Of a stretch of 64,000 nt of DNA, positions 1-22,208 are shown in pieces (the stretch's first letter is position 1; the number at the start of each line of letters is the position of its first letter). The position numbers and the translations under genes were made by a program. The notes beneath the pieces are model-generated. The model saw nothing but the letters and a program-made list of their open reading frames with translations. It did not search any database and was not told the DNA's origin. Source of the DNA: an uncultured Bacteroidales bacterium (GTDB lineage: Bacteria; Bacteroidota; Bacteroidia; Bacteroidales; VadinHA17); assembly GCA_963732435.1 (NCBI GenBank), contig CAVSZL010000008.1, positions 34,546 through 98,545 on the forward strand. The letters run 5' to 3'.

Positions 1-630
<630 letters not shown>

Positions 631-638
631 TCAGATAA

Positions 639-1724
<1,086 letters not shown>

Positions 1725-1738
1725 TTTATTGTTATTGA

Positions 1739-3715
<1,977 letters not shown>

Positions 3716-3758
3716 TTTAGCAAAGTGGAGAATAATAATTTTTTACAGAAGCAATCTT

Positions 3759-5321
3759 ATGAAAAAGATAACTATTTTACTTACATTGGTTGTGATGTTT
3801 TCGTTCATAACTGGAATCGCCCAGCAATCTTCTCCTGTACGAGTTGAGAGCGGATTGTTACAGGGAACTTCCGAAAACGGGCTGATGGTCTACAAAGGCA
3901 TCCCTTTTGCGGCTCCTCCAGTTGGTGATCTCCGATGGCGCGCACCTCAGCCACCATCTGATTGGGAGGGTATAAAGCAAGTCACAAAGTTTGCTCCCGG
4001 ACCCATACAGGGAGGAAATCCTCCCTCAGGAAAGAGCGAAGACTGCCTGTACCTGAATATCTGGACACCCGCAAAATCTGCAAATGACCTTATACCTGTG
4101 CTGGTCTGGATCTATGGTGGAGGATTCGGTGCAGGATCAACATCAGAGCGGAATTACAACGGGGAAAATCTGGCCAGAAAGGGAGTGGTCCTCGTCAGTA
4201 TTGCCTATCGTGTCGGTCAAATTGGTTTTTTGGCTCACCCTGAGTTGAGCAAAGAGAGTCCGAATAATGTTTCAGGAAATTACGGCCTTCTGGATATGAT
4301 TGCAGGTCTCCAATGGGTGCAGAAAAATATAACAGCATTTGGTGGCGACCCGAAAAAAGTGACCATTTTCGGTGAATCTGCAGGGGGAATAGCAGTCAGC
4401 ATGTTGTGTGCATCTCCACTTGCCAAAGGATTATTCCATGGCGCGATTTCACAAAGCGGGGGTTCATTCGGACCTCCCCGCCCTACCACCTTTCCGGGCG
4501 AGAATTTGAAAATACTTGCCAATGCTGAGAGTTCTGGTCAGGCGTATGTAAAAAACGCAGGGGTTTCATCCATTGCTGAACTCAGGAAGATCGGTCCTGA
4601 CAAACTACCTGCAGGCAGAGGACTTGGGATGTCATGGCCGATCATCGATGGGTGGGTAATTCCAGACGATCAGTACAAACTCTACGAAACGGGACGGTTC
4701 AATGACACACCGATTCTTGTTGGTTATAATTCAGATGAAGGTGCCAGTTTCTCACCACCAGGAACACCGGAGGCATATATTGCCAGTGTCAAAACGCGCT
4801 ACGGACCCTTTGCGGAGAGTCTCCTTAAGGCCTATCCTGCCGGTTCAGGGATTGTTCCCAAGACCGCCCGTGATCTGGCCCGCGATGCAGCGTTTGGCTG
4901 GCATACATGGATATGGGCACGGCTTCAGTCGAAGATAGGAAAATCTAATGCTTACTACTATTATTTTGATCAGCACCCTGACTATCCGGAGGATTCACCT
5001 AAAGCCGGATATGGTTCTCCTCACGGTCAGGATGTGGCCTATGTATTTCAGCATCTCAACGCAACAGATCCACTAACTACTAAAACTGACCTGGAAATCT
5101 CTGAAGCCATGGCCATCTACTGGACGAACTTCGCCAAATATGGCGATCCCAATGGGAAAGGGGTTCCGGTGTGGCCAGCCTTCAGCGATGCCAGCCCTGT
5201 GGTAATGCACTTTAACCAGAAACCACATACAGGACCGGTCCCAAGCGCTGAATCACTTAGGAGTCTTGATGCCTATTTTGCATGGCGACGAACACCTGAA
5301 GGAGAGGCATGGGCGAAATAA
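3759..5321 (+). CDS. Carboxylesterase type B (para-nitrobenzyl esterase-like)
   Basis: The internal Met at 3759 gives signal peptide MKKITILLTLVVMFSFITGIAQQ. The longer track ORF from 3639 overlaps the upstream gene. Type-B motifs seen: EDCLYLNIWTP, WIYGGGF and nucleophile FGESAGG. Sampled lines of this gene are visibly more GC-rich than sampled lines of the neighbouring esterase genes. Confidence 0.9.
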   Translation: MKKITILLTLVVMFSFITGIAQQSSPVRVESGLLQGTSENGLMVYKGIPFAAPPVGDLRWRAPQPPSDWEGIKQVTKFAPGPIQGGNPPSGKSEDCLYLNIWTPAKSANDLIPVLVWIYGGGFGAGSTSERNYNGENLARKGVVLVSIAYRVGQIGFLAHPELSKESPNNVSGNYGLLDMIAGLQWVQKNITAFGGDPKKVTIFGESAGGIAVSMLCASPLAKGLFHGAISQSGGSFGPPRPTTFPGENLKILANAESSGQAYVKNAGVSSIAELRKIGPDKLPAGRGLGMSWPIIDGWVIPDDQYKLYETGRFNDTPILVGYNSDEGASFSPPGTPEAYIASVKTRYGPFAESLLKAYPAGSGIVPKTARDLARDAAFGWHTWIWARLQSKIGKSNAYYYYFDQHPDYPEDSPKAGYGSPHGQDVAYVFQHLNATDPLTTKTDLEISEAMAIYWTNFAKYGDPNGKGVPVWPAFSDASPVVMHFNQKPHTGPVPSAESLRSLDAYFAWRRTPEGEAWAK

Positions 5322-5401
5322 TACAACTGCACGCAAATAGCTTACAAGGTGAATAACCTTAAATTATTTCGCACCTGACTATTTAAATTACAATTAGATG
5401 A

Positions 5402-6616
<1,215 letters not shown>

Positions 6617-6687
6617 CTATTATTATGAGTATCGGGAATCAATGATATGAATATATTGATTTTCAAGCTATTTTAGAACCTTTATGC

Positions 6688-9075
6688 ATGAGAAAATATG
6701 TTTATATATCAGGTGTAATCGCGTGCTTTTTGATTTTCTGTGAAGTAGGTGCTCAGAATGTACTCTATCCCAATGAATTCCCATTAGGGGATGTAACATT
6801 GCTTGACGGACAATTTAAACATGCCCGCGACCTGAATATTCAAACTTTGTTAAAATACGATGTAGACCGTCTGCTCGCTCCATTCAGGAAAGAAGCCGGA
6901 TTACCTGAAAAAGCGAAATTATTTCCTAATTGGGAGGGTCTGGATGGTCATATTGGCGGTCATTATCTATCAGCATTAGCTATGAACTATGCTGCCACAG
7001 GAAATGCTGAATGCAAAAAACGTATGGATTACATGATTGCCGGGCTAAAAGCCTGCCAGGATGCAAATGGTATAAACAATCCTGACTGGGGTAAAGGATA
7101 CCTCGGAGGTGTCCCCAATAGCAAAAATATCTGGAGCTCTTTGCAGAAAGGTGATTTTAAAGCGTACAGGGCTGCATGGGTGCCATGGTATAATGTGCAT
7201 AAGATGTATGCCGGATTGAGGGATGCATGGGCATATACAGGTAATGAAGATGCTAAAGTCATATTCCTGAAATTCTGCGACTGGGGAATTGATATCACCT
7301 CTGCCCTGTCTGACACACAGATGCAATCGATGCTTGATATGGAACATGGCGGGATGAATGAAATCTTCGCAGATGCATTTAAGATCACAGGAAATGAGAA
7401 ATATCTTAATGCAGCAAAACGGTTTTCTCACAGAATGCTTCTGGATGCAATGTCCTCACATACTGATAATCTGGATAATATACATGCAAATACTCAGGTT
7501 CCGAAAGCAGTCGGTTTTCAGCGGATAGCTGACTTTACCAGCGATAAGATGTTTGATGAGGCAGGAAGCTTTTTCTGGGAAACTGTAACCGGAACCCGGT
7601 CTCTGGCTTTTGGTGGTAACAGCAGGAGAGAATATTTTCCGGCTTTAGCTTCATACATTGATTTTGTAACTGAAGTAGAAGGCCCGGAATCGTGCAATTC
7701 ATATAACATGCTGAGGTTAACTGAGCATCTCTTCAGGGCCAGACCATTGGCAAAATATGCCGATTACTACGAAAAAACACTATATAACCACATCTTGTCG
7801 ACCCAGCATCCGGAACATGGCGGCTATGTTTACTTCACTCCTGCACGTCCGCGACATTACAGGGTTTATTCAGCACCTAATGAGGGGATGTGGTGTTGCG
7901 TAGGAAGCGGTATGGAAAATCACGGAAAATACAATCAGTTTATCTATACTCACCATCAGGATTCGCTATTTCTGAACCTTTTTATTCCTTCAGAACTGAA
8001 CTGGAAGGAAAAAGGTATAAAAATCAGACAATCAACCACTTTCCCCGATGAAGAACAGACCAGACTGACAATTATAGAAGGCTCATCCGGATTTAAACTA
8101 ATGGTACGTTATCCATCATGGGTCAACCGGGGAGCTCTTGAAATCACAATCAATGGTAAAGCTATTTCGATTGAATCGCAACCCTCATCATATATAGCTA
8201 TCGACCGACAATGGAAAAAAGGTGATGTTGTGCTCATTAAACTTCCTATGCATAATTCAATCGTAAAGCTGCCAAACGTACCAGAGTACATTGCTTTCAT
8301 GCATGGTCCGATATTACTCGGTGCAAAAACAGGCACCGAAGATTTGAAAGGACTGGTAGCAGATGACAGCCGATGGGGACACATAGCTCATGGCGAAAAA
8401 CTCCCCGTTGCGAAAGCGCCGATCCTGATTGATGATAACATAACAGGGATACCCGGTAAATTATTAGCGGTAAAAGATAAACAAATGACATTTACCGCTC
8501 CGGGGTTAAAAGTGATTAATGGTTCAGACATCGAGTTGGAGCCGTTTTACAGGATCCACGACTCAAGATACATGATGTATTGGATGGCCTTGTCAAATGA
8601 TGAGTATAGTTCTTACATCGACTCTGTTGCATTAGTTGATAAGATGAAACTGGAGCTTCAGAAACGTACCATAGATTTTGTTGCGCCGGGTGAACAGCAA
8701 CCCGAAGCTGATCATAAAATGCAAAACTCAAATTCAAATACCGGCACCCTTAACGATGAATTCTGGCGCGATGCCCGCGATGGAGGGAATTTCAGCTACC
8801 TCTTGAAAACAAATTCCGAAACCAGTCTCTCACTTATCTTACGATTTTGGGGTATGGAACGCAGAGCCAGAAAGTTTGATATATATATCGACAACGATAA
8901 ATTAATTTCCGAGAATAATTCAGGCAGGCTTGATAAGAACATGTTTATTGATGTTGAATATTCCATCCCGGATTCATTGATCATAGGCAAAAACCAGGTC
9001 AGGGTAATAATCCAGTCTGTTCCGGGATCATCAACAAGCCAGGTTTTTTATGTCCGCTTAGCCAGGAAAAAATAG
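6688..9075 (+). CDS. GH127-family (DUF1680) beta-L-arabinofuranosidase-like glycoside hydrolase
   Basis: 795 aa with a signal peptide. Motifs GPESCNSYNM and EGMWCCVGSGMENHGKY match the Cys/Zn centre known for GH127 HypBA1. A C-terminal beta-sandwich extension follows. Confidence 0.8.
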   Translation: MRKYVYISGVIACFLIFCEVGAQNVLYPNEFPLGDVTLLDGQFKHARDLNIQTLLKYDVDRLLAPFRKEAGLPEKAKLFPNWEGLDGHIGGHYLSALAMNYAATGNAECKKRMDYMIAGLKACQDANGINNPDWGKGYLGGVPNSKNIWSSLQKGDFKAYRAAWVPWYNVHKMYAGLRDAWAYTGNEDAKVIFLKFCDWGIDITSALSDTQMQSMLDMEHGGMNEIFADAFKITGNEKYLNAAKRFSHRMLLDAMSSHTDNLDNIHANTQVPKAVGFQRIADFTSDKMFDEAGSFFWETVTGTRSLAFGGNSRREYFPALASYIDFVTEVEGPESCNSYNMLRLTEHLFRARPLAKYADYYEKTLYNHILSTQHPEHGGYVYFTPARPRHYRVYSAPNEGMWCCVGSGMENHGKYNQFIYTHHQDSLFLNLFIPSELNWKEKGIKIRQSTTFPDEEQTRLTIIEGSSGFKLMVRYPSWVNRGALEITINGKAISIESQPSSYIAIDRQWKKGDVVLIKLPMHNSIVKLPNVPEYIAFMHGPILLGAKTGTEDLKGLVADDSRWGHIAHGEKLPVAKAPILIDDNITGIPGKLLAVKDKQMTFTAPGLKVINGSDIELEPFYRIHDSRYMMYWMALSNDEYSSYIDSVALVDKMKLELQKRTIDFVAPGEQQPEADHKMQNSNSNTGTLNDEFWRDARDGGNFSYLLKTNSETSLSLILRFWGMERRARKFDIYIDNDKLISENNSGRLDKNMFIDVEYSIPDSLIIGKNQVRVIIQSVPGSSTSQVFYVRLARKK

Positions 9076-9142: not shown

Positions 9143-12100
9143 ATGATAAAGAAAAGTCGTTTTAATGGCATTCATATGTTGACGCTCATACCACCCACCA
9201 TTATGATGCTTATATCACTTTCAGGGTTTGCACAGAAAGCTTATCTATCCGGACAGGAATGTCCGTGCGACATCTATGCCGCCGCAGGCAATCCATGTGT
9301 TGCTGCCCATAGCAGTACGCGTGCCCTGTACGCATCATATAAGGGAGCTCTGTACCAGGTTATGCGTCAGTCCGACGGTAAGACCCTCGACATAGGTACA
9401 GTCAGACCTACCGGGGAAGATCCGGGCGGATATGCCGACGCAGCAGCTCAGGATGCATTCTGCTCAGGAACCTTATGCTGGATAACCACTATATACGACC
9501 AGTCAGGAAAAGGTAATCACCTAGTTCAGGCGCCTCCGGGAACTTTCAAGGGACCGGCTAAAGGTGGATTTAATACTTTACCAATTGCGGATATGGCACC
9601 AGTTACAATCATGGGACATAAGGTTTACGGCGTCTATATCATGCCAGGCATGGGCTTGAGAAACAACAATGCAACCGGGCTTGCTATCAATGATGAACCA
9701 GAGGGTATTTACATGGTCTGTGACGGTAAGCACTTTGACAGTGGATGTTGCTTCAATTACGGCAACACTTCGACTAACAGCCGTGCTGTGGGCAGAGGAA
9801 CAATGGAAACAGTCTACTTTGGTACTTCAACTGCCTGGGGTAGAGGCAACGGCACAGGCCCATGGATAATGTCCGACATGGAGGCCGGACTTTTTTCCGG
9901 TTATAACGCTAAACAGAACTTAGCGAATCCCACTATCGATTCTTGGAACTTTGTCACAGGAGTAGTAAACGGCGGCGATGGAAACAAATGGCAGATAAGA
10001 GGCGGAGATGCTCAAAACGGAAATCTTTCAACTTTCTATAACGGCATCAGGCCTCATTCCCCTGACAATAATTTTTATTACCCTATGCACAGGAAAGGAG
10101 CCGTACAAATGGGCAATGGAGGGGACAATGGCAACGGGTCTGCCGGTACATTTTATGAAGGGGTAATGACCGGAGGATATCCATCCGATGCTACCACTGA
10201 TGCTGTGCAGACTAACATTGTTGCAGCCAGATATGATATTCAACGTCTTGATCTTTCACGTATTGCCTCTTTTTATCCGGGATCTGAACAATCGGTTACT
10301 GCAACATTCACTAACATAACCGAAGCTCCTGTTACAGGTGTCAAAATATCCATCTCCGTCCCAAAGGGATGGAAATCAACTGTTGCTGATTCTAAAGAAT
10401 CTGTAAAGATTTTCCGTGACCCGGTTGCCCCTGGAGAAAGTGTAACTGCTTCTTTTGCCGTTACATCACCCGCCATAACCGGCACGTTTTTCCTTAATGG
10501 AAAAGCCGAATGGAAGTACCAGGCTTCCGGCCTGATAGATTCCGAGACAACCTCGAAGAGAGTGAGAAATGTATATCCGGTAAAGATCAACGAAGTTCGA
10601 TTCGAAATCAGCGGAAGCCCGACAAATCAGTTTATTGAACTTTATAATTCAGGCAGTAGTGAGACTGATCTCTCCGGCTGGACCCTGATCAGCGCTCAAA
10701 GTATGTGGGCTCCTGTAAAGTTAGGGAAGATCACCGCCGGGACGAAACTCGCTGCTCAGGGCTTTTTCCTGCTTGGCCTCTCACCTTCAGGTTTGGCTGC
10801 CCCCGCAAACCGTGGCGAAAACATCATCAACGTTCGAAGTACCACCGGGTTTGAGGCTGGCCACCAGATAGACATTGAGGGTGAGATACGTACGATCGCA
10901 AGCGTCGGAACAGCGGCCACACCTATCACCACAATATTTGTTCCTGTTTCCACAGGGCCCTGGATTATAATCCCTGCCGGCTCTACCAACCTGCCCGTCA
11001 CGATTGCAACCGGTTTTGAGGTTGGGCAGAAGATCGGTATCGATTTAGGTGGCAACTACGAGGTAGCAACGGTCACAGTAGTCGGTAAGGGTGCAACACA
11101 AACCATCCTGTCTCAGGCAGCGAATACCGGTGATACAATAATTAAAGTTGCGGCATGTGCCAATATAACTAATGGTGACATACTGACATTAAATACCGGC
11201 TCACGTAAGGAACTCGTCAGGGTTAAACGGATTCTAAATGTTGTTACGGCTCCATCATTGCGGCCAGAACAACCAGGATACAGCACCTCCTCTCCGGGTG
11301 ATGTGGTCTTGACTGCACCGCTCAAATCTGACCATATGTTGAATGTAGATGTATCTTCTCCGGGCACAGGAATCAGTTTCTTTCCGGCTACAAGGTTTGT
11401 ACACAAGAGCGGCGACGCTGTACAGGCACTCGGTAGCGGTATCACACTAAAAAATGCGTTGGAAATGAATCACGAAGTCGGAGCAGCAGTATTAAATCCG
11501 ATGGTCACATCAATGGGTTATCAGGGGGCAGTAACACCAAATCAATGGTATGGAGCACCTATATCAACCTCTGCCGGATCGGTCACACTCCTGGATGCAA
11601 GTGGTGAAGTGGTAGTAGATGCAATCGTCTACGGATCACAACAGAGCAACTCAAGCGCCAATGGTATCATCACCACCCCCGAGATCTCTATTCTTGAGGG
11701 AAATCAGAGCCAGGGTGGGTGTATTGTAATAGCACCAGGTACTACTTCGGGTTCCGGGCCTTTCGCCACGTTCGCAAGCAAAACTAACAAAAGCGCTGGT
11801 CGATTCCCTGATGGAACTGATACTGACAGTAACTGCAACGATTTCTTCTTTCAGGGCACAACCATACTTACTTTTCCGGCCCCGGCAGGTACAAACAATA
11901 TTAAAGTTACAGGTATCGCAGACTTCAGCATCGGTCAAAAGGTTATCATTGGTTCAGGGGAAGATAGCGAGACAAGAGTTGTATCAAATATCGGTACTCC
12001 TGGAGGTACTACTCTCGGTTCTGCAACAAGTCCTGGAACCAAAGTTTTTGCAGTTGCAAGTTCGGAAGGGTTTAGCACTGGTCAGACCATCACAGTTGAC

Positions 12101-12361
12101 GAAGGGAAAAACACCGAAACAGCTATTATCTCATCTGTCACTGTCGCCCGTCGACGATTTGGAGCCAGTACGGTAAACACCCCTATGGATTCTATTGCCG
12201 TCTCAACACCTCTTACTATAGCGCATACACCTGGCATTCAGGTGTCTGGAAGCGGTATTACGTTCACCTCTCCATTAGAAAGGGCTCATGACAAAGGGAC
12301 ACAGGTAGCAAGTAACATTCCAACTCCCGGCAGGCCAAATCTATATGTCATAAAACCATAG
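9143..12361 (+). CDS. GH54 alpha-L-arabinofuranosidase catalytic domain fused to NEW3-like, lamin-tail (LTD) and repeat modules
   Basis: Residues about 39-365 align by eye with fungal AbfB: CPCDIYAAAGNPCVAAHSSTRALY, adjacent-Cys CCFNYGN, TMETVYFG, GNGGDNGNGSAGTFYEGVMTGGYPSD, NIVAARY. These are followed by VKINEVRF...FIELYNSG...LSGWTL (LTD). Confidence 0.85.
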   Translation: MIKKSRFNGIHMLTLIPPTIMMLISLSGFAQKAYLSGQECPCDIYAAAGNPCVAAHSSTRALYASYKGALYQVMRQSDGKTLDIGTVRPTGEDPGGYADAAAQDAFCSGTLCWITTIYDQSGKGNHLVQAPPGTFKGPAKGGFNTLPIADMAPVTIMGHKVYGVYIMPGMGLRNNNATGLAINDEPEGIYMVCDGKHFDSGCCFNYGNTSTNSRAVGRGTMETVYFGTSTAWGRGNGTGPWIMSDMEAGLFSGYNAKQNLANPTIDSWNFVTGVVNGGDGNKWQIRGGDAQNGNLSTFYNGIRPHSPDNNFYYPMHRKGAVQMGNGGDNGNGSAGTFYEGVMTGGYPSDATTDAVQTNIVAARYDIQRLDLSRIASFYPGSEQSVTATFTNITEAPVTGVKISISVPKGWKSTVADSKESVKIFRDPVAPGESVTASFAVTSPAITGTFFLNGKAEWKYQASGLIDSETTSKRVRNVYPVKINEVRFEISGSPTNQFIELYNSGSSETDLSGWTLISAQSMWAPVKLGKITAGTKLAAQGFFLLGLSPSGLAAPANRGENIINVRSTTGFEAGHQIDIEGEIRTIASVGTAATPITTIFVPVSTGPWIIIPAGSTNLPVTIATGFEVGQKIGIDLGGNYEVATVTVVGKGATQTILSQAANTGDTIIKVAACANITNGDILTLNTGSRKELVRVKRILNVVTAPSLRPEQPGYSTSSPGDVVLTAPLKSDHMLNVDVSSPGTGISFFPATRFVHKSGDAVQALGSGITLKNALEMNHEVGAAVLNPMVTSMGYQGAVTPNQWYGAPISTSAGSVTLLDASGEVVVDAIVYGSQQSNSSANGIITTPEISILEGNQSQGGCIVIAPGTTSGSGPFATFASKTNKSAGRFPDGTDTDSNCNDFFFQGTTILTFPAPAGTNNIKVTGIADFSIGQKVIIGSGEDSETRVVSNIGTPGGTTLGSATSPGTKVFAVASSEGFSTGQTITVDEGKNTETAIISSVTVARRRFGASTVNTPMDSIAVSTPLTIAHTPGIQVSGSGITFTSPLERAHDKGTQVASNIPTPGRPNLYVIKP
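10814..12142 (+). repeat. Five protein-level copies of a module of about 35 aa (x-I-x-V...GF-x-x-GQ-x-I-x-I...G...E...I-x-S-V) inside the GH54 protein
   Basis: Copies at aa 558-590, 613-649, 661-697, 915-951 and 963-1000. Examples: TTGFEAGHQIDIEGEIRTIASVG, ATGFEVGQKIGIDLGGNYEVATVTVVG, ADFSIGQKVIIGSGEDSETRVVSNIG, EGFSTGQTITVDEGKNTETAIISSV. Confidence 0.6.
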
Positions 12362-12648
12362 TAATAAACTTTTGTAAAATGGAAAATTTAATATGTTTTG
12401 GTAAGATTGTCCCTTATTTGGTAGCTTTGGGTAATGCAAACTCTGCTATGATATGATTTAAAATAACCCGAAGATTGGTCATGTACGAGGGGAAGAATCT
12501 CATAAGACAATTAATGCATGAATGATTTGACCCGGGGCATACAATCGAAGGTGAGATGAGAGAAAAAGAGCTAAGAATGAATTAACATTAAATATTAATA
12601 TTCAGATTTAAAAATAATTAGTTAATCCAAATTTAAAAATTAGGAATT

Positions 12649-14244
12649 ATGAGAAGAAAAGTAAAACTATACAAGGTGGTTATTATTATCTTTTTCTTCC
12701 TCTTCAGTTTGGTTTCTGTTTCAGGACAAAATGCCCGGATCAAATTCGATACTGATCGTATAAAAGGAGAGGTTGATAAAAACCTGTATGGGAATTTTGT
12801 TGAGCATCTGGGCAGATGCGTATATGGTGGAATTTATGAACCCGGTTCAAAGTTGTCAGATCCTGATGGGTTCCGGAAAGATGTACTGGAAGCTGTTAAA
12901 GGATTGAATGTTTCACTGATCCGGTATCCCGGAGGTAATTTTGTATCTAACTATCACTGGCTTGATGGAGTGGGTCCAAAAAATGAAAGAGTTCCAAGAA
13001 TGGAACTTGCCTGGGCAAGACTTGAAACCAACGAATTTGGAACTAATGAATTTGTTAAATATTGCAGGGCAGCAGGAAGCGAACCGTATCTTTCGGTCAA
13101 TATGGGAACCGGCACCATTGAAGAGGCACAAAGATGGGTTGAATACTGTAATGTGAAGGAAGGGCCTTATTATGCAGAGCTCAGGAGGAAACACGGCTTC
13201 CCGGAGCCTTATAATGTAAAATTCTGGAGTCTTGGAAACGAAATGGACGGCGAATGGCAGATGGGACATCTAAATGCCGAAGATTACAATAAAAAAGCCA
13301 TGGAGGCTGCCAAGCTGATGAGACTGACATCTCCTGATATAAAACTGGTTGCAGCAGGATCATCAAATTACAGACCTCACGCCGACCCTGATTATTGGAA
13401 CAGGTCTGTAATAACTCACCTTAAAGACGTTGTTGATTATATTGCTCTTCATATGTATGTCGGGAATCCTGACAATAACTATTATAATTTCCTTTCAACT
13501 CCACTTGTTATGGAAGAGAGAACCCGTATCGTAAGAGGAATGATTGATGAGGCAATGCAAAAAGCCGACAGGGGAACCAGACCACCCATGTATATTGCCT
13601 GGGACGAGTATAATGTTTGGTATAGGGCACGAACAGATGAAACGATGAAGGGAACAAGAGCTCTGGAGGAAAAATACAATCTTGAGGATGCGCTGGTAAT
13701 CGGTGGCTTTCTAAATGTATTTATAAGAAATGCAGACATTGTTAAAATGGCCAATATGGCTCAACTTGTAAATGTCATCGCTCCGGTTTTCGCAGAAGAA
13801 AAGGGGATTTTCAGGCAGACAATATATTTCCCGTTGGAACTATTTGCTAAGAATATGAAGGGAAAATCACTTGATCTTTTTGTTGATTGTCCGACATATA
13901 ACACCGATGAATTTTACATAGGCCTTGGTGAGGCTACAACAAAACAGACGAATGTACCTTACCTCGATGTATCTGCCACATATAATAATGGAGAGGTTGT
14001 AATATGCGTTATCAACAGACATAAGGACAATCCTATTAAGACCGATATTATCAGCCAGTCAGGTGAGTTTATTGATGTTCTTAAGGTATCTGAGATCAAC
14101 GCACCAGATATCAAGGCAACAAATGATTTTGGTATCGAAAATGTCAGGACTGTTTCCAAGCCCGACCTGAAACCAAATGGAAATATAGTTACTTATGCGT
14201 TTCCTGCCCATTCTTTAACCTTGATCCGGGGAAAACTAAAATGA
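12649..14244 (+). CDS. GH51 alpha-L-arabinofuranosidase
   Basis: Signal peptide present. Motifs: LYGNFVEHLGRCVYGGIY, IRYPGGNFVSNYHW, and WSLGNEMDGEWQ (GNE acid/base motif). Typical length of 531 aa. Confidence 0.9.
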   Translation: MRRKVKLYKVVIIIFFFLFSLVSVSGQNARIKFDTDRIKGEVDKNLYGNFVEHLGRCVYGGIYEPGSKLSDPDGFRKDVLEAVKGLNVSLIRYPGGNFVSNYHWLDGVGPKNERVPRMELAWARLETNEFGTNEFVKYCRAAGSEPYLSVNMGTGTIEEAQRWVEYCNVKEGPYYAELRRKHGFPEPYNVKFWSLGNEMDGEWQMGHLNAEDYNKKAMEAAKLMRLTSPDIKLVAAGSSNYRPHADPDYWNRSVITHLKDVVDYIALHMYVGNPDNNYYNFLSTPLVMEERTRIVRGMIDEAMQKADRGTRPPMYIAWDEYNVWYRARTDETMKGTRALEEKYNLEDALVIGGFLNVFIRNADIVKMANMAQLVNVIAPVFAEEKGIFRQTIYFPLELFAKNMKGKSLDLFVDCPTYNTDEFYIGLGEATTKQTNVPYLDVSATYNNGEVVICVINRHKDNPIKTDIISQSGEFIDVLKVSEINAPDIKATNDFGIENVRTVSKPDLKPNGNIVTYAFPAHSLTLIRGKLK

Positions 14245-16646
14245 AAAAAAATACAACCTCCATTAATATCGTATTCATTGTGTTAATGACAATTATAGTC
14301 ACACACACATCCTGTACGAAAAACCAGACTGAATCTAAAGAAATGGTCCTGTGGTATAATAAACCTGCAGATAAAGTATGGCTGGACGGATTATTCATTG
14401 GGAATGGCTACATGGGTGCCAATGTATTCGGGAGAGTGCAGAACGAGAGAATAGCTCTGAATGAGTCTACTTTCTGGTCAGGCAAGCCTCATGATTATAA
14501 CGATCCTGATGCCGGCAAGTATTTCGGGCAAATTAAAGATCTTGTATTTGCTGAAAAATTCAAGGAAGCTGAAAAGCTGGCAGATGAACATTTTTATGGA
14601 ATACCGGCTGCACAGCAGGCATATGCGCCTGTTGGAGACCTTCTCCTGGACTTTAAAGTTACAGGTGATTCCATAAAAGATTATTACCGCGAGCTGGATA
14701 TGGAAACCGGAATTGTCAGAGTCAGCTATACCGATGGTGATGTAAAGATGACACGTGAAGTATTCATGTCTTATCCCGACCATGTTATGGTCATGAAAGT
14801 GTCGGCAAATAAACCCGGAAAGGTATCTGTAGAAGCTAAGTTAAAAAGTCCTTTTAAAGAAGAAATAATAGCAAAAGATGGCAAACTGATCCTGAACGGG
14901 ATGTGGAGATATCTTCCCGAAAAAGACAGCTGGCTCATTGCCAGGGTTGAAGGAACAGGAATGAGATTCCAGACTGCCATTACCGCTATTCCTGAAAAAG
15001 GCACCCTTAAAGCAACCGATTCAAGTCTTGTTGTTTCTGATGCCAATTCTGTTACATTTTTACTCACATCCGCAACAAGTTTTTTAACTTATAAAGATAT
15101 AAGCGGAGATCCTGCAACTGCCTGTGAAAAAATTCTGACTGCAACTAATGGTAAAGACTTTAATACACTTAAAAATACTCATTTAAGTGATTTCAGTAAT
15201 CTTATGAGCAGAGTGCATCTTAAAATTGGCGACCCTTTAAAGAATCAAAAACCAACTGATGAAAGAGTTGCTGATCTTAAGAAAGGCCTCAAAGACCCGG
15301 ACCTGCTATCTAAAATATTTCAGTTTGGCCGTTATATTCTGGTTTCAAGCAGCAGAACAGGAAGTGAACCTGCTAATTTACAGGCAAGATGGAACCAGGA
15401 TCTGCTGCCCAACTGGGGAAGTAAATATACCATCAATATCAATACAGAAATGAATTACTGGCCAGCCGAAGTAACAAACCTGTCGGAGACACACACACCA
15501 TTATTTCACATGATAAAGGATCTGGCCGAAAACGGTTCTAACACAGCAAAAATTTATTACAGCGCCGGTGGCTGGGTGGCTCATCATAATACTGATCTGT
15601 GGAGGGGTACAGCTCCTGTTGATGCAGCACGCTATGGAATGTGGCCGGTTGGAGGCGTATGGCTTTGTCAGCATATCTGGGAACATTACCTTTTTACAGG
15701 AGATGCGGACTTTCTCAGAGAATATTATCCGGTAATGAAAGGGGCTGCCCAGTTCCTGATGGACATTATGGTAATACATCCCAAATATAACTACCTGGTG
15801 ATTCCATTCTCAATGTCACCTGAACAGGGCTTTTTTGTCAGAGAGGGTGCAGAAGAGACCTTCCTGGCGCCGACAACAACAATGAATATTGGAATGGTCA
15901 AAGATCTTTTTCCTCATTGTATTGAGGCTGCTAAAATCCTTAATGTTGATCAGGATTTCAGTGCAAAACTCGCAGATGCACTCGAAAAAATACCACCATA
16001 CATGATCGGTAAGGATGGTTTACTTCAGGTTTGGATAGAGGATTGGATAAGGGGCAATGAAGGACATAATATGTCTGCTAACTTCGGTTTCTTTCCGGGC
16101 AATTCCATAACGTTGAGGGGAAATCCGGAAATTGCTGCGGCAATTCAAAAATGGCTTGAGCCACGTCGGTCAAGATTAAGCTGGACAAGCGCATGGGATA
16201 TCTGTGATTGGGCAAGACTTGAAAATGGGGTAAGGGCAGATACGGCAATTAACCAGTTTTTCAGGGTTACACCAATGAGAAGTGGCGAAGGAGGTAATCA
16301 GATGCCAAGGCAGGTATTGGTAATAACCTTCATAATCCCAGCAGCAACCAGTCGGATGCCAATTTCGGATTTACTGCAGGAGTTGCCGAGTGTCTGCTTG
16401 CAGAGTCACGCAGGAGAAATCTCATTACTGCCGGCATTACCCCCCAGCTGGGATAAAGGTATCGTAACAGGATTAAGAGCCAGAGGTGGATTTGAAGTAA
16501 ATATGAGTTGGGAAAATGGACTCCTTAAAACGTGTGAAATAAAATCAATTCTGGGAAATCCTTGCATTGTGGGATATGGTGAGAAGACCAAAAGTTATGA
16601 TATCCCGGCAGGAACATCAATAAATATTACCGCAGAACTATTATAA
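14241..16646 (+). CDS. GH95 alpha-L-fucosidase/alpha-L-galactosidase family protein; continuous ORF with an internal out-of-frame segment (see findings)
   Basis: Lipoprotein-type signal (..THTSC). GH95 N-terminal motif WYNKPADKVW...GNGYMGANVFG...ESTFWSG and C-terminal LQSHAGEISLLPALPPSW...GLRARGGFEV. The start overlaps the GH51 stop (ATGA at 14241-14244). Confidence 0.8.
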   Translation: MKKNTTSINIVFIVLMTIIVTHTSCTKNQTESKEMVLWYNKPADKVWLDGLFIGNGYMGANVFGRVQNERIALNESTFWSGKPHDYNDPDAGKYFGQIKDLVFAEKFKEAEKLADEHFYGIPAAQQAYAPVGDLLLDFKVTGDSIKDYYRELDMETGIVRVSYTDGDVKMTREVFMSYPDHVMVMKVSANKPGKVSVEAKLKSPFKEEIIAKDGKLILNGMWRYLPEKDSWLIARVEGTGMRFQTAITAIPEKGTLKATDSSLVVSDANSVTFLLTSATSFLTYKDISGDPATACEKILTATNGKDFNTLKNTHLSDFSNLMSRVHLKIGDPLKNQKPTDERVADLKKGLKDPDLLSKIFQFGRYILVSSSRTGSEPANLQARWNQDLLPNWGSKYTININTEMNYWPAEVTNLSETHTPLFHMIKDLAENGSNTAKIYYSAGGWVAHHNTDLWRGTAPVDAARYGMWPVGGVWLCQHIWEHYLFTGDADFLREYYPVMKGAAQFLMDIMVIHPKYNYLVIPFSMSPEQGFFVREGAEETFLAPTTTMNIGMVKDLFPHCIEAAKILNVDQDFSAKLADALEKIPPYMIGKDGLLQVWIEDWIRGNEGHNMSANFGFFPGNSITLRGNPEIAAAIQKWLEPRRSRLSWTSAWDICDWARLENGVRADTAINQFFRVTPMRSGEGGNQMPRQVLVITFIIPAATSRMPISDLLQELPSVCLQSHAGEISLLPALPPSWDKGIVTGLRARGGFEVNMSWENGLLKTCEIKSILGNPCIVGYGEKTKSYDIPAGTSINITAELL

Positions 16647-17011: not shown

Positions 17012-18949
17012 CTAATCTAATTTCTGAATAAATCCCTCTTTATTGGTACGGATCTTATATATATTACTATAGGCGGCAATGTAGAGTGTCTTCATGTCAT
17101 CATCTCCAAAACAGACACTTACCGGTGCAATAGGAGTGTTGATAATCCCAACAAATTTCCCTTCTGAATTAAAGATCTGTGTACCAACAGCAGTCGCTAC
17201 ATAAATGTTACCCTCTTTATCTATTGCCATACCGTCGGCATTTGTTGATTTCCCTTTTAAATCAAGCATCGACTCCCTTATAAACAATTCTGCAAATTTA
17301 CGACCATTGCTCAGTGTTCCATCTTCATTTACATCATATGCCCATACAAAATTATCCTTTTCACTGCTAACAGGATATCCAGGGTCGTCATCGTAACAGT
17401 TGTTAATAAATGCTGTTTTACCATCCGGAGAAAGGAAAATACCATTTGGCATTGCAAAATCATTTGGTTCAGTAACTCTTATTAGTTTATTATCCGGTGA
17501 AATATAGTAGACAGCCCTTCCGGGTTGAAACTTCACAGGGTCCATGGTAAATTGTGGATCGGTAAAATAAACACCTCCTTTAGGATCAACAACAAGGTCA
17601 TTCGGACCATCCACCGGTTTTCCATTAAATTTGTTATTGAGTATGTTCACGATCTCTCCTTTTGTGGTCATCTCCACTACTCTGTGACCCATCATGTCGC
17701 AGGCCAGCAGATTGCCGTTTTTATAGGGATAAAGACCATTGGTCTGCATCTTCCCATAACTAATATAGCGGTATGTTCCGTCCGGATCCATTTCTACAGT
17801 GGCACTTCTTCGTGGATCCCCATTCCAGGCTGCATCAAAATACATGCTTGAGAAATACAGTTTCCCATTGATCCATTTGGGTCCTTCTGTAAAAATAAGT
17901 CCTGGTTTTGTATTTTTGCCATCAATAACAAGCTCAACCTTAGCATTTTCAGGAATAAAACTACGATAAGCAGCTTCTCTGGCCTGAGCTTTTTCATCAT
18001 AGTCAGTCCGTGCCGGCCAGAAAATATCGATAACATCACAACCAAGAGGTCCGATGTTCGCACCATGAATAATGTTGGGTGGAAGAAGAAGCAGATCATC
18101 TTTCTTCATGGGTTGTTCTCCGTCAAGGATTATTTCATTGCATCCTCCCCGAAGAACAAGCATCAATTGTTCAGCAGGATGAATATGGCGTTCAAAAACG
18201 GATCCTGGCCCCATCGAAAGGAAACTGATCTGAGTATTCTTGCCTGTAATTACCTTTGAATTTGCTCCAGGTACCAGTTCTGTGAATTGAAGATCGTAAA
18301 CATCATAAACAGTATTTGGCTTTACATTTGGATTAAGTTGGGTTTGGATATCCTTATTTTTTGAAGGAATATCTGATATACCCGCTTTTTGAAGATAGTC
18401 CAAACGTACAGGGCTGTATACCTCTAACAGTTTTGCTCCCGATGGCCCTGCCTTTAAAGCATTCTTGCTCCCATTTTCCAGATAGACAAAATCTATACGG
18501 GGAGTCCCTCCATGTGTGCCGTCTATAGCTTCTCTGGGTTTAGAGACCATTGTAACAAGATTCCCATCAATAAGCTGATCAACAGAACCTTCCAACACAA
18601 ATAAAAACCGATCGCCTGAGAGAACTTCCTCAGGTATTTGTGCATTAGGTTCAAGGTCAAGGATGCCGGCAAGGTTGCCTTGCCCCCAGTAAAGCTTAGC
18701 ATTTACACCCGGGTACAGAAGTACACTGCTGACATTATCAAGGCTGGTTACCTTCGCGGGCTCAAGATTTGAGACAATACCGGTTTTCGGAATACCTGAT
18801 ACCTTCTGAATTGTAAGACTATACTGCTTGATAAGTTCGCTGTTCTTTTTTTGCCATTCAGGTTTGCTTGTACACTGTATAAGACTTACCGATGTTAAAA
18901 CCAGTAAGACTACAGGCAGGATAAGTTTTTTCGTTGATTTTGTTTTCAT
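17012..18949 (-). CDS. Exported lipoprotein: two cupin-like domains fused to an SMP-30/gluconolactonase/LRE-like beta-propeller
   Basis: Signal plus Cys (LVLTSVSLIQC). The second cupin keeps metal ligands (ERHIHPAEQ...IIHGANIG). C-terminal lactonase-family motifs: FTEGPKW, GPNDLVVDPKGGVYFTDP, PNGIFLSPDGKTAFI, ADGMAIDKEGNIYVA. Confidence 0.75.
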   Translation of the reverse strand: MKTKSTKKLILPVVLLVLTSVSLIQCTSKPEWQKKNSELIKQYSLTIQKVSGIPKTGIVSNLEPAKVTSLDNVSSVLLYPGVNAKLYWGQGNLAGILDLEPNAQIPEEVLSGDRFLFVLEGSVDQLIDGNLVTMVSKPREAIDGTHGGTPRIDFVYLENGSKNALKAGPSGAKLLEVYSPVRLDYLQKAGISDIPSKNKDIQTQLNPNVKPNTVYDVYDLQFTELVPGANSKVITGKNTQISFLSMGPGSVFERHIHPAEQLMLVLRGGCNEIILDGEQPMKKDDLLLLPPNIIHGANIGPLGCDVIDIFWPARTDYDEKAQAREAAYRSFIPENAKVELVIDGKNTKPGLIFTEGPKWINGKLYFSSMYFDAAWNGDPRRSATVEMDPDGTYRYISYGKMQTNGLYPYKNGNLLACDMMGHRVVEMTTKGEIVNILNNKFNGKPVDGPNDLVVDPKGGVYFTDPQFTMDPVKFQPGRAVYYISPDNKLIRVTEPNDFAMPNGIFLSPDGKTAFINNCYDDDPGYPVSSEKDNFVWAYDVNEDGTLSNGRKFAELFIRESMLDLKGKSTNADGMAIDKEGNIYVATAVGTQIFNSEGKFVGIINTPIAPVSVCFGDDDMKTLYIAAYSNIYKIRTNKEGFIQKLD

Positions 18950-19068
18950 AGTTTTGTTTTGAGTTTTAATGATATTTTGTTTTTGAGTTTAGTAGTATTA
19001 ATTAAATGCATGTTTTTCAATAAAATAGAAACATAACATGATTACATCAGTTGATTCGAAAAGTTGAA

Positions 19069-21808: not shown

Positions 21809-22208
21809 AATAGTTATTTTATTATTAGAATGATAACTGGTAAATTTCAAAGATGATGGTGAATAAAGTATAAATGGTGTTGAACATAATATCAACCATT
21901 ATTGCTTAAAAACTGCGGTTAATTTACATAAATTTATTTAATACCCTTCAAATCTCTTACTGAAATATAATATATATGATCGGGCAAATTGACAAAGTAT
22001 TCCTGGTTCAATGCAGGGTGGCATATTTATCCATAATCCTGATATTGAGTTTCTTAACAGAGCCAAATAATCATTAAATAATACTATTTAGTTTCACTTG
22101 AAAAAGAGAATTATATTTATAGTATCAATTTTTGACAGTAATAACGAAGCCTATAAAAAGTAACCCATTAATAACTAATCGTTTATCTGCTGAAGAAAGA
22201 AATATCCT

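What the first reader, a model, noticed from the sequence alone, without database searches (positions are those of the whole stretch)
9143..10240. Fungal-type GH54 (AbfB) catalytic domain in a Bacteroidota genome, in a GC-rich gene
Residues about 39-365 are colinear with the Aspergillus-type AbfB catalytic domain. This includes the N-terminal CPCDIY...PCVAAHS region, the adjacent-cysteine CCFNYGN motif, the nucleophile context TMETVY and the acid/base context GNGGDNGNG. GH54 is overwhelmingly a fungal family, so a bacterial copy is notable. Hand counts of single 60-nt lines inside this gene give about 47-53% G+C. Lines I sampled in the GH51 gene and in the housekeeping part of the window gave about 32-40%. 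That contrast is consistent with horizontal acquisition. The fungal CBM42 arabinose-binding domain is absent and is replaced by other modules.
Basis: partly seen in the sequence, partly recalled or inferred. Interest (0 to 1): 0.55.

Follow-up and report, generated by a model that had tools for sequence, protein, structure and literature searches.

The report
Ordinary bacterial GH54 arabinofuranosidase gene
The gene really encodes a GH54 arabinose-releasing enzyme, but it belongs to a large, already described bacterial branch of that family and is not a recent import from fungi, and its higher G+C comes mostly from its amino-acid make-up.

Summary
ORF 9143..12361 (+, 1072 aa) carries a full-length GH54 catalytic domain (aa 41-364; Pfam E=2.7e-131; 56% identical to Aspergillus AbfB). 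The three disulfide pairs and the catalytic Glu and Asp are conserved. The fungal and horizontal-transfer reading does not hold.

- **Bacterial spread:** GH54 was found in at least 591 places in species-representative bacterial genomes and in thousands of metagenome proteins.
- **Prior description:** A 2021 paper already described bacterial GH54 groups, including this GH54+NEW3+LTD architecture.
- **Phylogeny:** The window protein sits in a 100%-bootstrap bacterial clade, inside a Bacteroidales subcluster (97%). Fungal enzymes group with actinobacterial GH54+CBM42 enzymes instead.
- **Synteny:** The closest relative has the same GH127-GH54…GH51 neighbourhood.
- **G+C:** The contrast is real (48.0% against about 41% in the flanks). 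About two thirds comes from a Gly/Ala/Pro/Ser/Thr-rich protein. Across 61 related loci, gene G+C follows flank G+C (r=0.93), and the window lies on that line (+0.2 sd).
The nucleophile is in SDMEAG (E247), not TMETVY.

The one open item is the conserved C-terminal module. It is a lamin-tail domain interrupted by one copy of a duplicated ~150-aa domain and followed by the other. It has no solved structural relative and may bind carbohydrate.

The parts
9143..12361 (+). Whole gene: secreted multi-domain GH54 alpha-L-arabinofuranosidase, 1072 aa plus stop codon
   Evidence: ORF list. Pfam domains. Full-length homologs of about 1050 aa are the norm in non-actinobacterial bacteria.
9143..9235 (+). 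Probable signal peptide (aa 1-31: MIKKSRFNGIHMLTLIPPTIMMLISLSGFAQ). No lipoprotein cysteine follows it.
   Evidence: Read from the sequence: basic N-region, hydrophobic core, A-Q/K cleavage context. This is inference, as no signal-peptide predictor was available. Homologs have an equivalent N-terminal hydrophobic leader (consensus).
9263..10234 (+). GH54 catalytic domain (aa 41-364)
   Evidence: PF09206 E=2.7e-131, profile positions 1-314 of 315. 56% identity to AkAbfB.
9746..9751 (+). Adjacent cysteines C202-C203, equivalent to AkAbfB C176-C177. The other two Cys pairs, C42/C52 and C107/C112, are also conserved.
   Evidence: Pairwise mapping to P0121. Invariant columns in the family alignment.
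9875..9883 (+). D245-M-E247: catalytic nucleophile Glu (AkAbfB E221) and the neighbouring Asp (D219)
   Evidence: Mapping. PDB mutants E221Q (6SXR) and E221A (2D43/2D44) identify the residue. D211 and E213 of alignment A1 are invariant.
10124..10126 (+). D328: general acid/base Asp (AkAbfB D297) in GNGGDNGNG
   Evidence: Mapping. Invariant G-G-D-N in A1. The role of D297 comes from established knowledge (Miyanaga et al. 2004, J Biol Chem) and from the Glu/Asp assignment quoted in PMC6887791.
10277..10483 (+). NEW3 / NPCBM-associated Ig-like domain (aa 379-447)
   Evidence: PF10633 E=1.4e-12.
10577..10789 (+). N-terminal half of a lamin-tail domain (aa 479-549)
   Evidence: PF00932 E about 4e-9, profile positions 7-70 of 109 only. 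Foldseek local matches to lamin Ig-fold structures, probability 1.0, rmsd about 2.3 A.
10802..11509 (+). Repeat unit 1 (aa 554-789), inserted inside the lamin-tail domain. It holds three 'GF..GQ.I.I…E…I.SVG' half-repeats plus 'SGITL..PL…H..G..V' tail elements.
   Evidence: AF2 pLDDT about 90. hhalign of unit 1 against unit 2: probability 99.8%, E=2.2e-27.
11537..11851 (+). C-terminal half of the lamin-tail domain (aa 799-903). It includes a conserved but poorly modelled loop with near-invariant C860 and C898 and the GRFPDGxDTDSNCxDF motif.
   Evidence: Conserved columns. pLDDT below 50 for model residues 361-434, which are aa 830-903. Assigning this stretch to the LTD is inference from the motif and the strand pattern.
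11858..12325 (+). Repeat unit 2 (aa 906-1061), the C-terminal copy of the duplicated domain
   Evidence: AF2 alone: mean pLDDT 89.2, pTM 0.77. No PDB hit with E<=0.001, query TM-score <=0.38. The unit HMM hits only GH54 genes in the window plus 81 loci.
6688..9075 (+). Upstream neighbour: GH127 beta-L-arabinofuranosidase
   Evidence: PF07944 E=1e-105. Adjacent to GH54 in L002, L036 and L079 as well.
12649..16646 (+). Downstream neighbours: GH51 alpha-L-arabinofuranosidase (12649-14244) and GH95 (14241-16646)
   Evidence: Pfam. The GH51 ortholog is 85% identical in L002.
88..6616 (+). Upstream esterase genes of the same-strand cluster: four 'Esterase' PF00756 proteins (one with CBM48) and one carboxylesterase
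   Evidence: Pfam. The same esterase families flank GH54 in many related loci.

Best explanation
The gene encodes a secreted, retaining exo-alpha-L-arabinofuranosidase of family GH54. It belongs to the widespread bacterial 'long' form, with the architecture GH54 catalytic domain, NEW3 domain, and a lamin-tail domain interrupted by one copy of a duplicated ~150-aa domain and followed by the other. It is a long-resident gene of a Bacteroidales-type plant cell-wall side-chain degradation cluster, alongside feruloyl-type esterases, GH127, GH51, GH95 and GH43.

Proposed mechanism (inferred from the family):
- Double displacement, with E247 as nucleophile and D328 as general acid/base.
- The enzyme removes terminal alpha-1,2/1,3-linked arabinofuranose from arabinoxylan or arabinan.
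- The neighbouring enzymes handle ferulate esters, beta-L-arabinofuranose caps and other decorations.
- The C-terminal module takes the place of the fungal and actinobacterial CBM42 and probably targets the enzyme to polysaccharide. This last step is the least supported.

The raised G+C is a property of the protein family (Gly/Ala/Pro/Ser/Thr-rich) in any low-G+C host. It is not a mark of recent acquisition.
For: Shown:
- Full-length GH54 model match and homology to solved AkAbfB.
- Conservation of all three Cys pairs, D245, E247 and D328.
- The same roughly 1000-1150 aa architecture in most non-actinobacterial loci, and in all 120 best hits to the C-terminal module, some of which are fragments.
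- Tree placement: long-form clade 100, clade A 100, Bacteroidales subcluster 97 of 100 bootstraps.
- Synteny with L002: Est 67%, CBM48-Est 64%, GH127 72%, GH54 83% in the domain and 64% full length, carboxylesterase 83%, GH51 85%, GH43 78%.
- No mobility genes among the neighbours annotated.
- GC2 0.507 and GC3 0.427; 45.6% Gly/Ala/Pro/Ser/Thr; expected G+C 0.443-0.456 from composition.
- Family regression r=0.93, window residual 0.2 sd.

Inferred: substrate, secretion, and the role of the C-terminal module.
Against: - No long-form bacterial GH54 that I could find has been characterised biochemically, so activity and substrate are extrapolated from fungal enzymes at 56-58% identity.
- A residual synonymous G+C excess of +2.5 to +3.7 points (z=5-8) remains after correcting for amino-acid composition.
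- Within clade A, phyla are interleaved (Bacteroidota, Verrucomicrobiota, Acidobacteriota, Planctomycetota), so older inter-phylum transfers among bacteria are likely.
- The tree is neighbour-joining on the 80 loci most similar to the query, not a full-family maximum-likelihood analysis.
- No T9SS or lipoprotein signal was recognised, so the cellular location is uncertain.
- The exact product is absent from the protein collection although its neighbours are present.
Confidence: 0.85

Rival explanations
1. Direct, relatively recent horizontal transfer of a fungal AbfB gene into a Bacteroidota genome.
For: 56-58% identity to ascomycete AbfB over the whole catalytic domain, which is high for a bacterium-fungus pair. 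Gene G+C is above that of its surroundings.
Against: - Fungi are monophyletic (100/100) and lie outside the 81-sequence bacterial long-form clade (100/100) that contains the window.
- The window is closer to bacterial clade A (75% identity), clade B (62%) and actinobacterial enzymes (62%) than to fungal ones (58%).
- The architecture differs: no CBM42, and the window has NEW3 and LTD modules that none of the listed fungal homologs carry.
- Synteny with a relative.
- The G+C offset is typical of the family.
Confidence: 0.02
2. Acquisition from another, higher-G+C bacterial phylum (for example Acidobacteriota or Verrucomicrobiota), recent enough that the gene is not fully ameliorated.
For: - A residual synonymous G+C excess of +0.025 to +0.037 after correcting for amino-acid composition.
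- GC3 is 0.427, against about 0.37 for the other cluster genes.
- Clade A mixes several phyla.
- Some related loci show much larger gene-flank offsets: L030 +0.115, L037 +0.152, L079 +0.178. So bacterial transfers of this gene do seem to occur.
Against: - The nearest relatives are all Bacteroidales-type sequences (subcluster bootstrap 97), with a conserved neighbourhood.
- The neighbouring carboxylesterase shows the same residual, and the whole 27-kb cluster is richer in G+C than the rest of the window. The signal is therefore not specific to GH54.
- The window lies on the family regression line.
Confidence: 0.1
3. The enzyme is a GH54 member but its main activity is not on alpha-L-arabinofuranosides. 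It could be, for example, a beta-D-galactofuranosidase or act on another furanoside, with the C-terminal module directing it to a non-plant glycan.
For: [quoted passage not shown] No long-form bacterial enzyme has been characterised. The C-terminal units resemble only phage capsule-depolymerase insertion domains, and weakly.
Against: The gene is embedded among arabinose- and xylan-side-chain enzymes (GH127, GH51, GH43, GH95, feruloyl-type esterases) here and in many related loci. The active-site residues and disulfides are identical to those of AkAbfB.
Confidence: 0.07

Closest known systems
Aspergillus kawachii/luchuensis alpha-L-arabinofuranosidase B (AkAbfB; GH54+CBM42; PDB 1WD3, 2D43, 6SXR-T)
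   Same: The catalytic domain is colinear over about 325 residues at 56% identity. All three disulfide pairs are conserved, including the adjacent Cys-Cys pair, as are D219, E221 and D297. The expected chemistry is the same: a retaining exo-arabinofuranosidase.
   Different: There is no CBM42 beta-trefoil. Instead there are about 700 further residues (NEW3, split LTD, duplicated domain). The window protein lies in a different, strongly supported clade.
Actinobacterial GH54+CBM42 enzymes (Streptomyces, Saccharothrix, Microbispora, Amycolatopsis; for example P0096, P0100)
   Same: They are bacterial GH54 enzymes with 62% identity to the window in the catalytic domain.
   Different: They are about 480-530 aa with CBM42, group with the fungal enzymes (73% identity to fungi), and come from high-G+C hosts.
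Uncharacterised 'Bacteria I' GH54 sequences with ArabFuran-catal + NPCBM_assoc + LTD domains, described in PMC8155123 (Sci Rep 2021)
   Same: They have the same domain architecture by Pfam/SMART. The window protein is a further member of this long bacterial form.
   Different: That paper lists Acidobacteria, Verrucomicrobia, Proteobacteria and Actinobacteria for the group. Bacteroidota members, although abundant in genome and metagenome data, are not named there. The split nature of the LTD and the duplicated inserted domain were not described there.
Insertion ('rider') domains of phage capsule depolymerases/tailspikes (PDB 7VUL, 7W1C, 6E0V, 4Y9V)
   Same: There is local structural similarity of about 100-180 aligned columns to the C-terminal repeat unit, with Foldseek probability up to 1.0. 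There is also a very weak Pfam hit to K1-lyase_Rider.
   Different: E-values are only 2e-3 or worse, query TM-score is <=0.38, rmsd is 7-11 A, and sequence identity is about 15%. This is a resemblance, not an established relationship.

Membership tests
Glycoside hydrolase family 54 (GH54) | Significant full-length match to the family's catalytic-domain model | tested here: met
   PF09206: 437.8 bits against a cutoff of 25, E=2.7e-131, profile positions 1-314 of 315.
Glycoside hydrolase family 54 (GH54) | Catalytic nucleophile Glu (AkAbfB E221) | tested here: met
   E247 aligns to E221. E221 is the residue replaced in PDB mutants 6SXR (Q) and 2D43/2D44 (A). It is invariant in alignment A1.
Glycoside hydrolase family 54 (GH54) | General acid/base Asp (AkAbfB D297) | tested here: met
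   D328 aligns to D297 in the invariant GGDN motif. The role of D297 is taken from established knowledge (Miyanaga et al. 2004) and from the Glu/Asp assignment in PMC6887791.
Glycoside hydrolase family 54 (GH54) | Three disulfide pairs of the AkAbfB catalytic domain, including the adjacent Cys176-Cys177 | tested here: met
   C42/C52, C107/C112 and C202/C203 align to C21/C31, C81/C86 and C176/C177.
Glycoside hydrolase family 54 (GH54) | Beta-sandwich catalytic fold | not tested
   The catalytic domain was not modelled. 56% identity to 1WD3 over about 350 residues makes the fold very likely.
Glycoside hydrolase family 54 (GH54) | Retaining alpha-L-arabinofuranosidase activity | not testable with these tools
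   This needs an enzyme assay.
Fungal-type AbfB (GH54 + CBM42) | C-terminal CBM42 (AbfB, PF05270) arabinose-binding beta-trefoil | tested here: not met
   There is no PF05270 hit, even at E<=10, on the C-terminal segments. All listed fungal and actinobacterial homologs carry it.
Fungal-type AbfB (GH54 + CBM42) | Phylogenetic placement with fungal sequences | tested here: not met
   Fungi are monophyletic 100/100. The window is in a separate bacterial clade supported 100/100.
Bacterial long-form GH54 (GH54-NEW3-LTD) | NEW3 and LTD domains following the catalytic domain | tested here: met
   PF10633 E=1.4e-12; PF00932 E about 4e-9. Lamin Ig-fold matches for the model.
Bacterial long-form GH54 (GH54-NEW3-LTD) | Conserved ~600-aa C-terminal module with the duplicated unit | tested here: met
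   54-66% identity in 120 homologs, with 80-100% of the 603-aa query covered. Unit 1 against unit 2 by hhalign: probability 99.8%.
Bacterial long-form GH54 (GH54-NEW3-LTD) | Placement in the long-form clade | tested here: met
   Clade A+B 100/100; clade A 100/100; Bacteroidales subcluster 97/100.
Recently acquired genomic island | Composition atypical beyond what the protein sequence dictates | tested here: inconclusive
   The residual is +0.025 to +0.037 G+C (z=5-8) after correction. It is shared with a neighbouring gene, and the window is on the family regression line at 0.2 sd. Only 64 kb of host sequence was available.
Recently acquired genomic island | Absence from relatives, or a disrupted neighbourhood | tested here: not met
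   GH127-GH54 adjacency and the GH51, carboxylesterase and GH43 neighbours are conserved in L002 at 64-85% identity.
Recently acquired genomic island | Flanking mobility genes, tRNA or repeats | tested here: not met
   No integrase or transposase family appears among the annotated ORFs. There is no tRNA gene in the window. Direct repeats were not searched.

The most novel reading that the evidence does not exclude
The conserved ~600-aa C-terminal module would be a new carbohydrate-binding or surface-targeting module family that replaces CBM42 in bacterial GH54 enzymes. The module is a lamin-tail domain split by insertion of one copy of a duplicated ~150-aa beta-rich domain, with a second copy at the C-terminus. 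The domain was found only in GH54 genes in the sample examined and has no solved structural relative (query TM-score <=0.41). It shares a distant origin or design with the insertion domains of phage capsule depolymerases.
Probability: 0.3. Interest if true: 0.45.

Novelty: new member of a known kind. Interest (0 to 1): 0.2.

Why it matters
As filed, the finding matters little. It is one more member of a large bacterial GH54 subfamily that is already annotated, sitting in a typical arabinoxylan/arabinan side-chain degradation cluster.

It is useful as a caution in two ways:
- Family-level 'fungal' reputations taken from characterised enzymes are out of date for sequence space.
- A G+C contrast driven by second codon positions reflects protein composition, not gene transfer.

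The practical lead is that no long-form bacterial GH54 appears to have been characterised. Its conserved C-terminal module has no assigned function or solved fold, so this subfamily is a reasonable target for CAZyme biochemistry.

Tried and rejected
- **Source record:** I tried to identify it by exact-protein look-up. The 1072-aa product and three shorter ATG-start variants are not on record. Neighbours are on a 296,720-bp NCBI/ENA contig, but the look-up of encoding contigs returned nothing for GH51. The organism is therefore only inferred as Bacteroidales-like, from its nearest relatives.
- **Literature on catalytic residues:** Miyanaga 2004/2006 and McGregor 2020 are not held. I used the PDB mutant sequences instead.
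- **Literature searches for 'GH54':** These are contaminated by 'GH5_4', because underscores are ignored.
- **NCBIfam:** No hit for the whole protein, so no T9SS C-terminal domain or named equivalog.
- **BLASTP self-comparison:** It did not detect the internal repeats. Profile-profile comparison did.
- **Promoter and terminator scan:** Nothing above shuffle expectation that bears on the question.
- **Assembly chimera or planted sequence:** I considered this because the product is missing from the collection. I rejected it because GH127-GH54 adjacency is conserved in L002, L036 and L079.
Full report
**What is there**

The finding's coordinates (9143-10240) cover the first third of an intact ORF, 9143..12361 on the + strand, 1072 aa.
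- Pfam assigns residues 41-364 to PF09206, the GH54 alpha-L-arabinofuranosidase B catalytic domain. The match is 437.8 bits, E=2.7e-131, over profile positions 1-314 of 315.
- This is followed by NPCBM_assoc/NEW3 (aa 379-447) and the N-terminal half of a lamin-tail domain (aa 479-547).
- Residues 41-389 align to the solved Aspergillus kawachii AbfB structures (1WD3, 6SXT) at E about 1e-110, with 56% identity.
- The domain assignment is therefore confirmed, and no other family competes for it.

**Active site**

I mapped the protein onto full-length AkAbfB (P0121).
- C21/C31, C81/C86 and the adjacent C176/C177 correspond to C42/C52, C107/C112 and C202/C203.
- D219, E221 and D297 correspond to D245, E247 and D328.
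- All of these columns are invariant in a 15-sequence family alignment.
- The papers that define the catalytic residues are not in the library. However, the PDB holds AkAbfB point mutants whose only differences from wild type are E221Q (6SXR) and E221A (2D43/2D44), within VDM-E-NN.
- The acid/base context GNGGDNGNG (D328) agrees with my recollection of Miyanaga et al. 2004 and with the Glu/Asp assignment quoted in PMC6887791.

**Is a bacterial GH54 notable?**

No.
- The catalytic domain finds 5,236 protein clusters at E<=1e-5. Among the hits that carry a source name are Bacteroidia, Bacteroidales, Parabacteroides, Verrucomicrobiota, Sphingomonas and Streptomyces.
- The best 80 come from Bacteroidales, Rikenellaceae, Prevotellaceae, Muribaculaceae, Mucilaginibacter, Prolixibacteraceae, Verrucomicrobiae, many Acidobacteriota, Pirellulales, KSB1, Myxococcota and Actinomycetota.
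- PMC8155123 (2021) already splits CAZy GH54 into a fungal group and four bacterial groups. It lists ArabFuran-catal + LTD + NPCBM_assoc among 'not yet characterized' bacterial sequences.

**Is it fungal-type?**

I built a neighbour-joining tree with 100 bootstraps. It used 314 aligned columns and 107 catalytic domains: the window, 91 bacterial domains from the 81 loci, three actinobacterial proteins and 12 fungal proteins.

| Split | Bootstrap support |
|---|---|
| Fungi monophyletic | 100/100 |
| All non-actinobacterial 'long' enzymes as one clade | 100/100 |
| Subclade A, which contains the window | 100/100 |
| Window plus eight sequences, mostly Bacteroidales MAGs (L001, L002, L003, L006, L009, L031, L036, L041) | 97/100 |

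| Comparison | Mean identity |
|---|---|
| Window to clade A | 75% |
| Window to clade B | 62% |
| Window to actinobacterial GH54+CBM42 | 62% |
| Window to fungi | 58% |
| Fungi to actinobacterial enzymes | 73% |

- Fungal and actinobacterial enzymes group together, though only with 63/100 support.
- The closest bacterial relatives of the fungal enzymes are therefore the CBM42-bearing actinobacterial ones, not this protein.
- Caveats: the bacterial sample is the 80 loci most similar to the query, and the method is distance-based.

**Is it native here?**

- The nearest genome hit is L002, a MAG labelled 'Bacteroidetes bacterium AS06rmzACSIP_518'. It has a 1069-aa ortholog that is 83% identical in the catalytic domain and 64% overall.
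- L002 has the same neighbourhood. Two esterases (67% and 64%) and GH127 (72%) lie directly upstream. A carboxylesterase (83%), GH51 (85%) and GH43 (78%) lie downstream.
- GH127-GH54 adjacency recurs in L036 and L079, and esterase-GH54 adjacency recurs in many loci.
- No integrase or transposase family appears among the annotated ORFs of the window, and there is no tRNA gene.

**The G+C contrast**

The contrast is real.

| Region | G+C |
|---|---|
| GH54 gene | 48.0% |
| Catalytic part of the gene | 49.3% |
| GH127 | 42.1% |
| GH51 | 40.7% |
| 10-kb flanks | 40.6% |
| Whole window | 37.6% |

- The outlier is the second codon position. GC2 is 0.507, the highest of 43 ORFs, while GC3 is 0.427.
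- The protein is 45.6% Gly+Ala+Pro+Ser+Thr, against 23-41% for the other proteins checked.
- I re-drew synonymous codons from the usage of the other genes. This predicts 44.3% G+C with all genes as reference and 45.6% with the cluster genes as reference.
- Roughly two thirds of the excess over the window is therefore dictated by the protein sequence. A residual of +2.5 to +3.7 points (z=5-8) remains, and the neighbouring carboxylesterase gene (3639-5321) shows the same residual.
- Across 61 complete long-form loci with at least 8 kb of flank, gene G+C tracks flank G+C (slope 0.81, intercept 0.144, r=0.93).
- GC2 stays between 0.44 and 0.60 in every host, while GC3 runs from 0.33 to 0.92 with the host.
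- In hosts with flank G+C below 47%, the gene exceeds its flanks by 6.7 points on average.
- The window's predicted value is 47.5% and the observed value is 48.0%, a residual of 0.2 sd.
- The contrast is therefore what any member of this family shows in a low-G+C genome.
- Some other loci (L030, L037, L079, L009) have far larger offsets and may be real recent bacterial transfers.

**The modules that replace CBM42**

- The C-terminal 603 residues (aa 470-1072) are conserved at 54-66% identity in the 120 best homologs, most of them over the full length. Nearly all of these are GH54+NEW3+LTD proteins of about 1050 aa, or fragments of such proteins.
- An AlphaFold2 model of this region has mean pLDDT 73, with about 90 for three blocks. 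It confirms lamin-type Ig strands at aa 479-549 and again after aa 799. Foldseek gives probability 1.0 local matches to lamin structures.
- The lamin-tail domain is therefore interrupted by an inserted domain, unit 1 (aa 554-789), and followed by unit 2 (aa 906-1061).
- The two units are homologous (hhalign probability 99.8%, E=2.2e-27, 30% identity). Each consists of 'GF..GQ.I.I…E…I.SVG' half-repeats plus 'SGITL..PL…H..G..V' elements.
- Unit 2 modelled alone is confident (pLDDT 89, pTM 0.77). It has no PDB hit at E<=0.001. The best hits, with query TM-score <=0.38, are insertion domains of phage capsule depolymerases (7VUL, 7W1C, 6E0V). This echoes a very weak Pfam hit to K1-lyase_Rider.
- The viral structure library gives similar weak matches to accessory domains of phage tail and tailspike proteins.
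- An HMM of the unit hits only GH54 genes, or their frameshifted or contig-edge fragments, in the window plus 81 loci, about 1.6 Mb in all.
- The function of this module is unknown. A polysaccharide-targeting role, analogous to CBM42, is my inference.

**Mechanism and context**

- Shown: a complete GH54 active site, an N-terminal hydrophobic leader, and a same-strand cluster.
- The cluster comprises esterases (88-6616), GH127 (6688-9075), GH54, GH51 (12649-14244) and GH95 (14241-16646). A further esterase (20630-21895, on the minus strand) and GH43 (22209-23762) lie nearby.
- Inferred from family knowledge: a retaining double-displacement exo-arabinofuranosidase that strips alpha-1,2/1,3-Araf side chains from arabinoxylan or arabinan.
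- In this picture it works alongside feruloyl-type esterases, a beta-L-arabinofuranosidase (GH127) and other side-chain enzymes.
- Its location, periplasmic or secreted, is undetermined. There is no lipoprotein cysteine, and no T9SS domain was recognised.

**Verdict**

The fungal/HGT interpretation is not supported.
- The gene is a new member of a known, abundant, uncharacterised bacterial GH54 subfamily.
- Interest is low. The only open lead is the unassigned C-terminal module.

Noticed in passing
window 1-27500 versus 27500-64000: The left ~27 kb holds the esterase and glycoside hydrolase cluster. It is richer in G+C (about 0.41-0.43, GC3 about 0.37) than the housekeeping right part (about 0.33-0.36, GC3 about 0.31). 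Cluster genes sit slightly above the composition-corrected expectation and the other genes slightly below it.
   Followed up: partly
window 3639-5321 (+): This carboxylesterase (PF00135) gene has 48.5% G+C and the same composition-corrected excess (+0.037) as the GH54 gene. Its listed GTG start overlaps the previous ORF by 77 nt, so the ATG at 3759 is a more likely start.
   Followed up: partly
window 11630-11851 (aa 830-903 of the GH54 protein): This stretch is strongly conserved (YGSQQSNSSANG…GGC…GRFPDGxDTDSNCxDF, with near-invariant C860 and C898), yet AlphaFold2 models it with pLDDT below 50. It may be a disulfide-stapled or ligand- or metal-dependent loop of the lamin-tail domain.
   Followed up: no
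window 9143-12361: The exact GH54 product, with four ATG starts tried, is absent from the 15-billion-protein collection, and the best hit in it is only 80% identical. Yet GH127, GH51, GH95, GH20, Nramp and a sugar-phosphate isomerase/AP-endonuclease-family (PF01261) protein of the same window are present, on a 296,720-bp NCBI/ENA contig. The gene may be unannotated or marked as a pseudogene in the source record.
   Followed up: partly
L001, L006, L030, L031, L036, L041 (and 12 more loci): Many Bacteroidales-type loci carry two GH54 paralogs, clade A at about 75-80% and clade B at about 60% identity to the window, adjacent or a few kb apart. The window has only the clade A copy.
   Followed up: partly
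L001 10001-13222: The 559-aa protein P0001 is the N-terminal piece of a split long-form GH54. Fragments carrying the C-terminal repeat units follow at 11589-12038 and 12050-13222, which indicates a frameshift or an assembly error.
   Followed up: partly
L009 (Pirellulales MAG) 893-4282; L069 (Bifidobacteriaceae MAG) 4512-7640: The L009 GH54 falls inside the Bacteroidales subcluster, and its gene G+C is 0.50 against 0.36 in the flanks. The L069 copy is nearly identical to Vicinamibacterales copies. Both are either mis-binned contigs or recent inter-phylum transfers.
   Followed up: no
window 17012-20457 (-): Two cupin-domain proteins, one fused to an SMP-30/gluconolactonase-like beta-propeller, sit between the GH95 gene and the next esterase. 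Their role in this glycan cluster is unclear.
   Followed up: no
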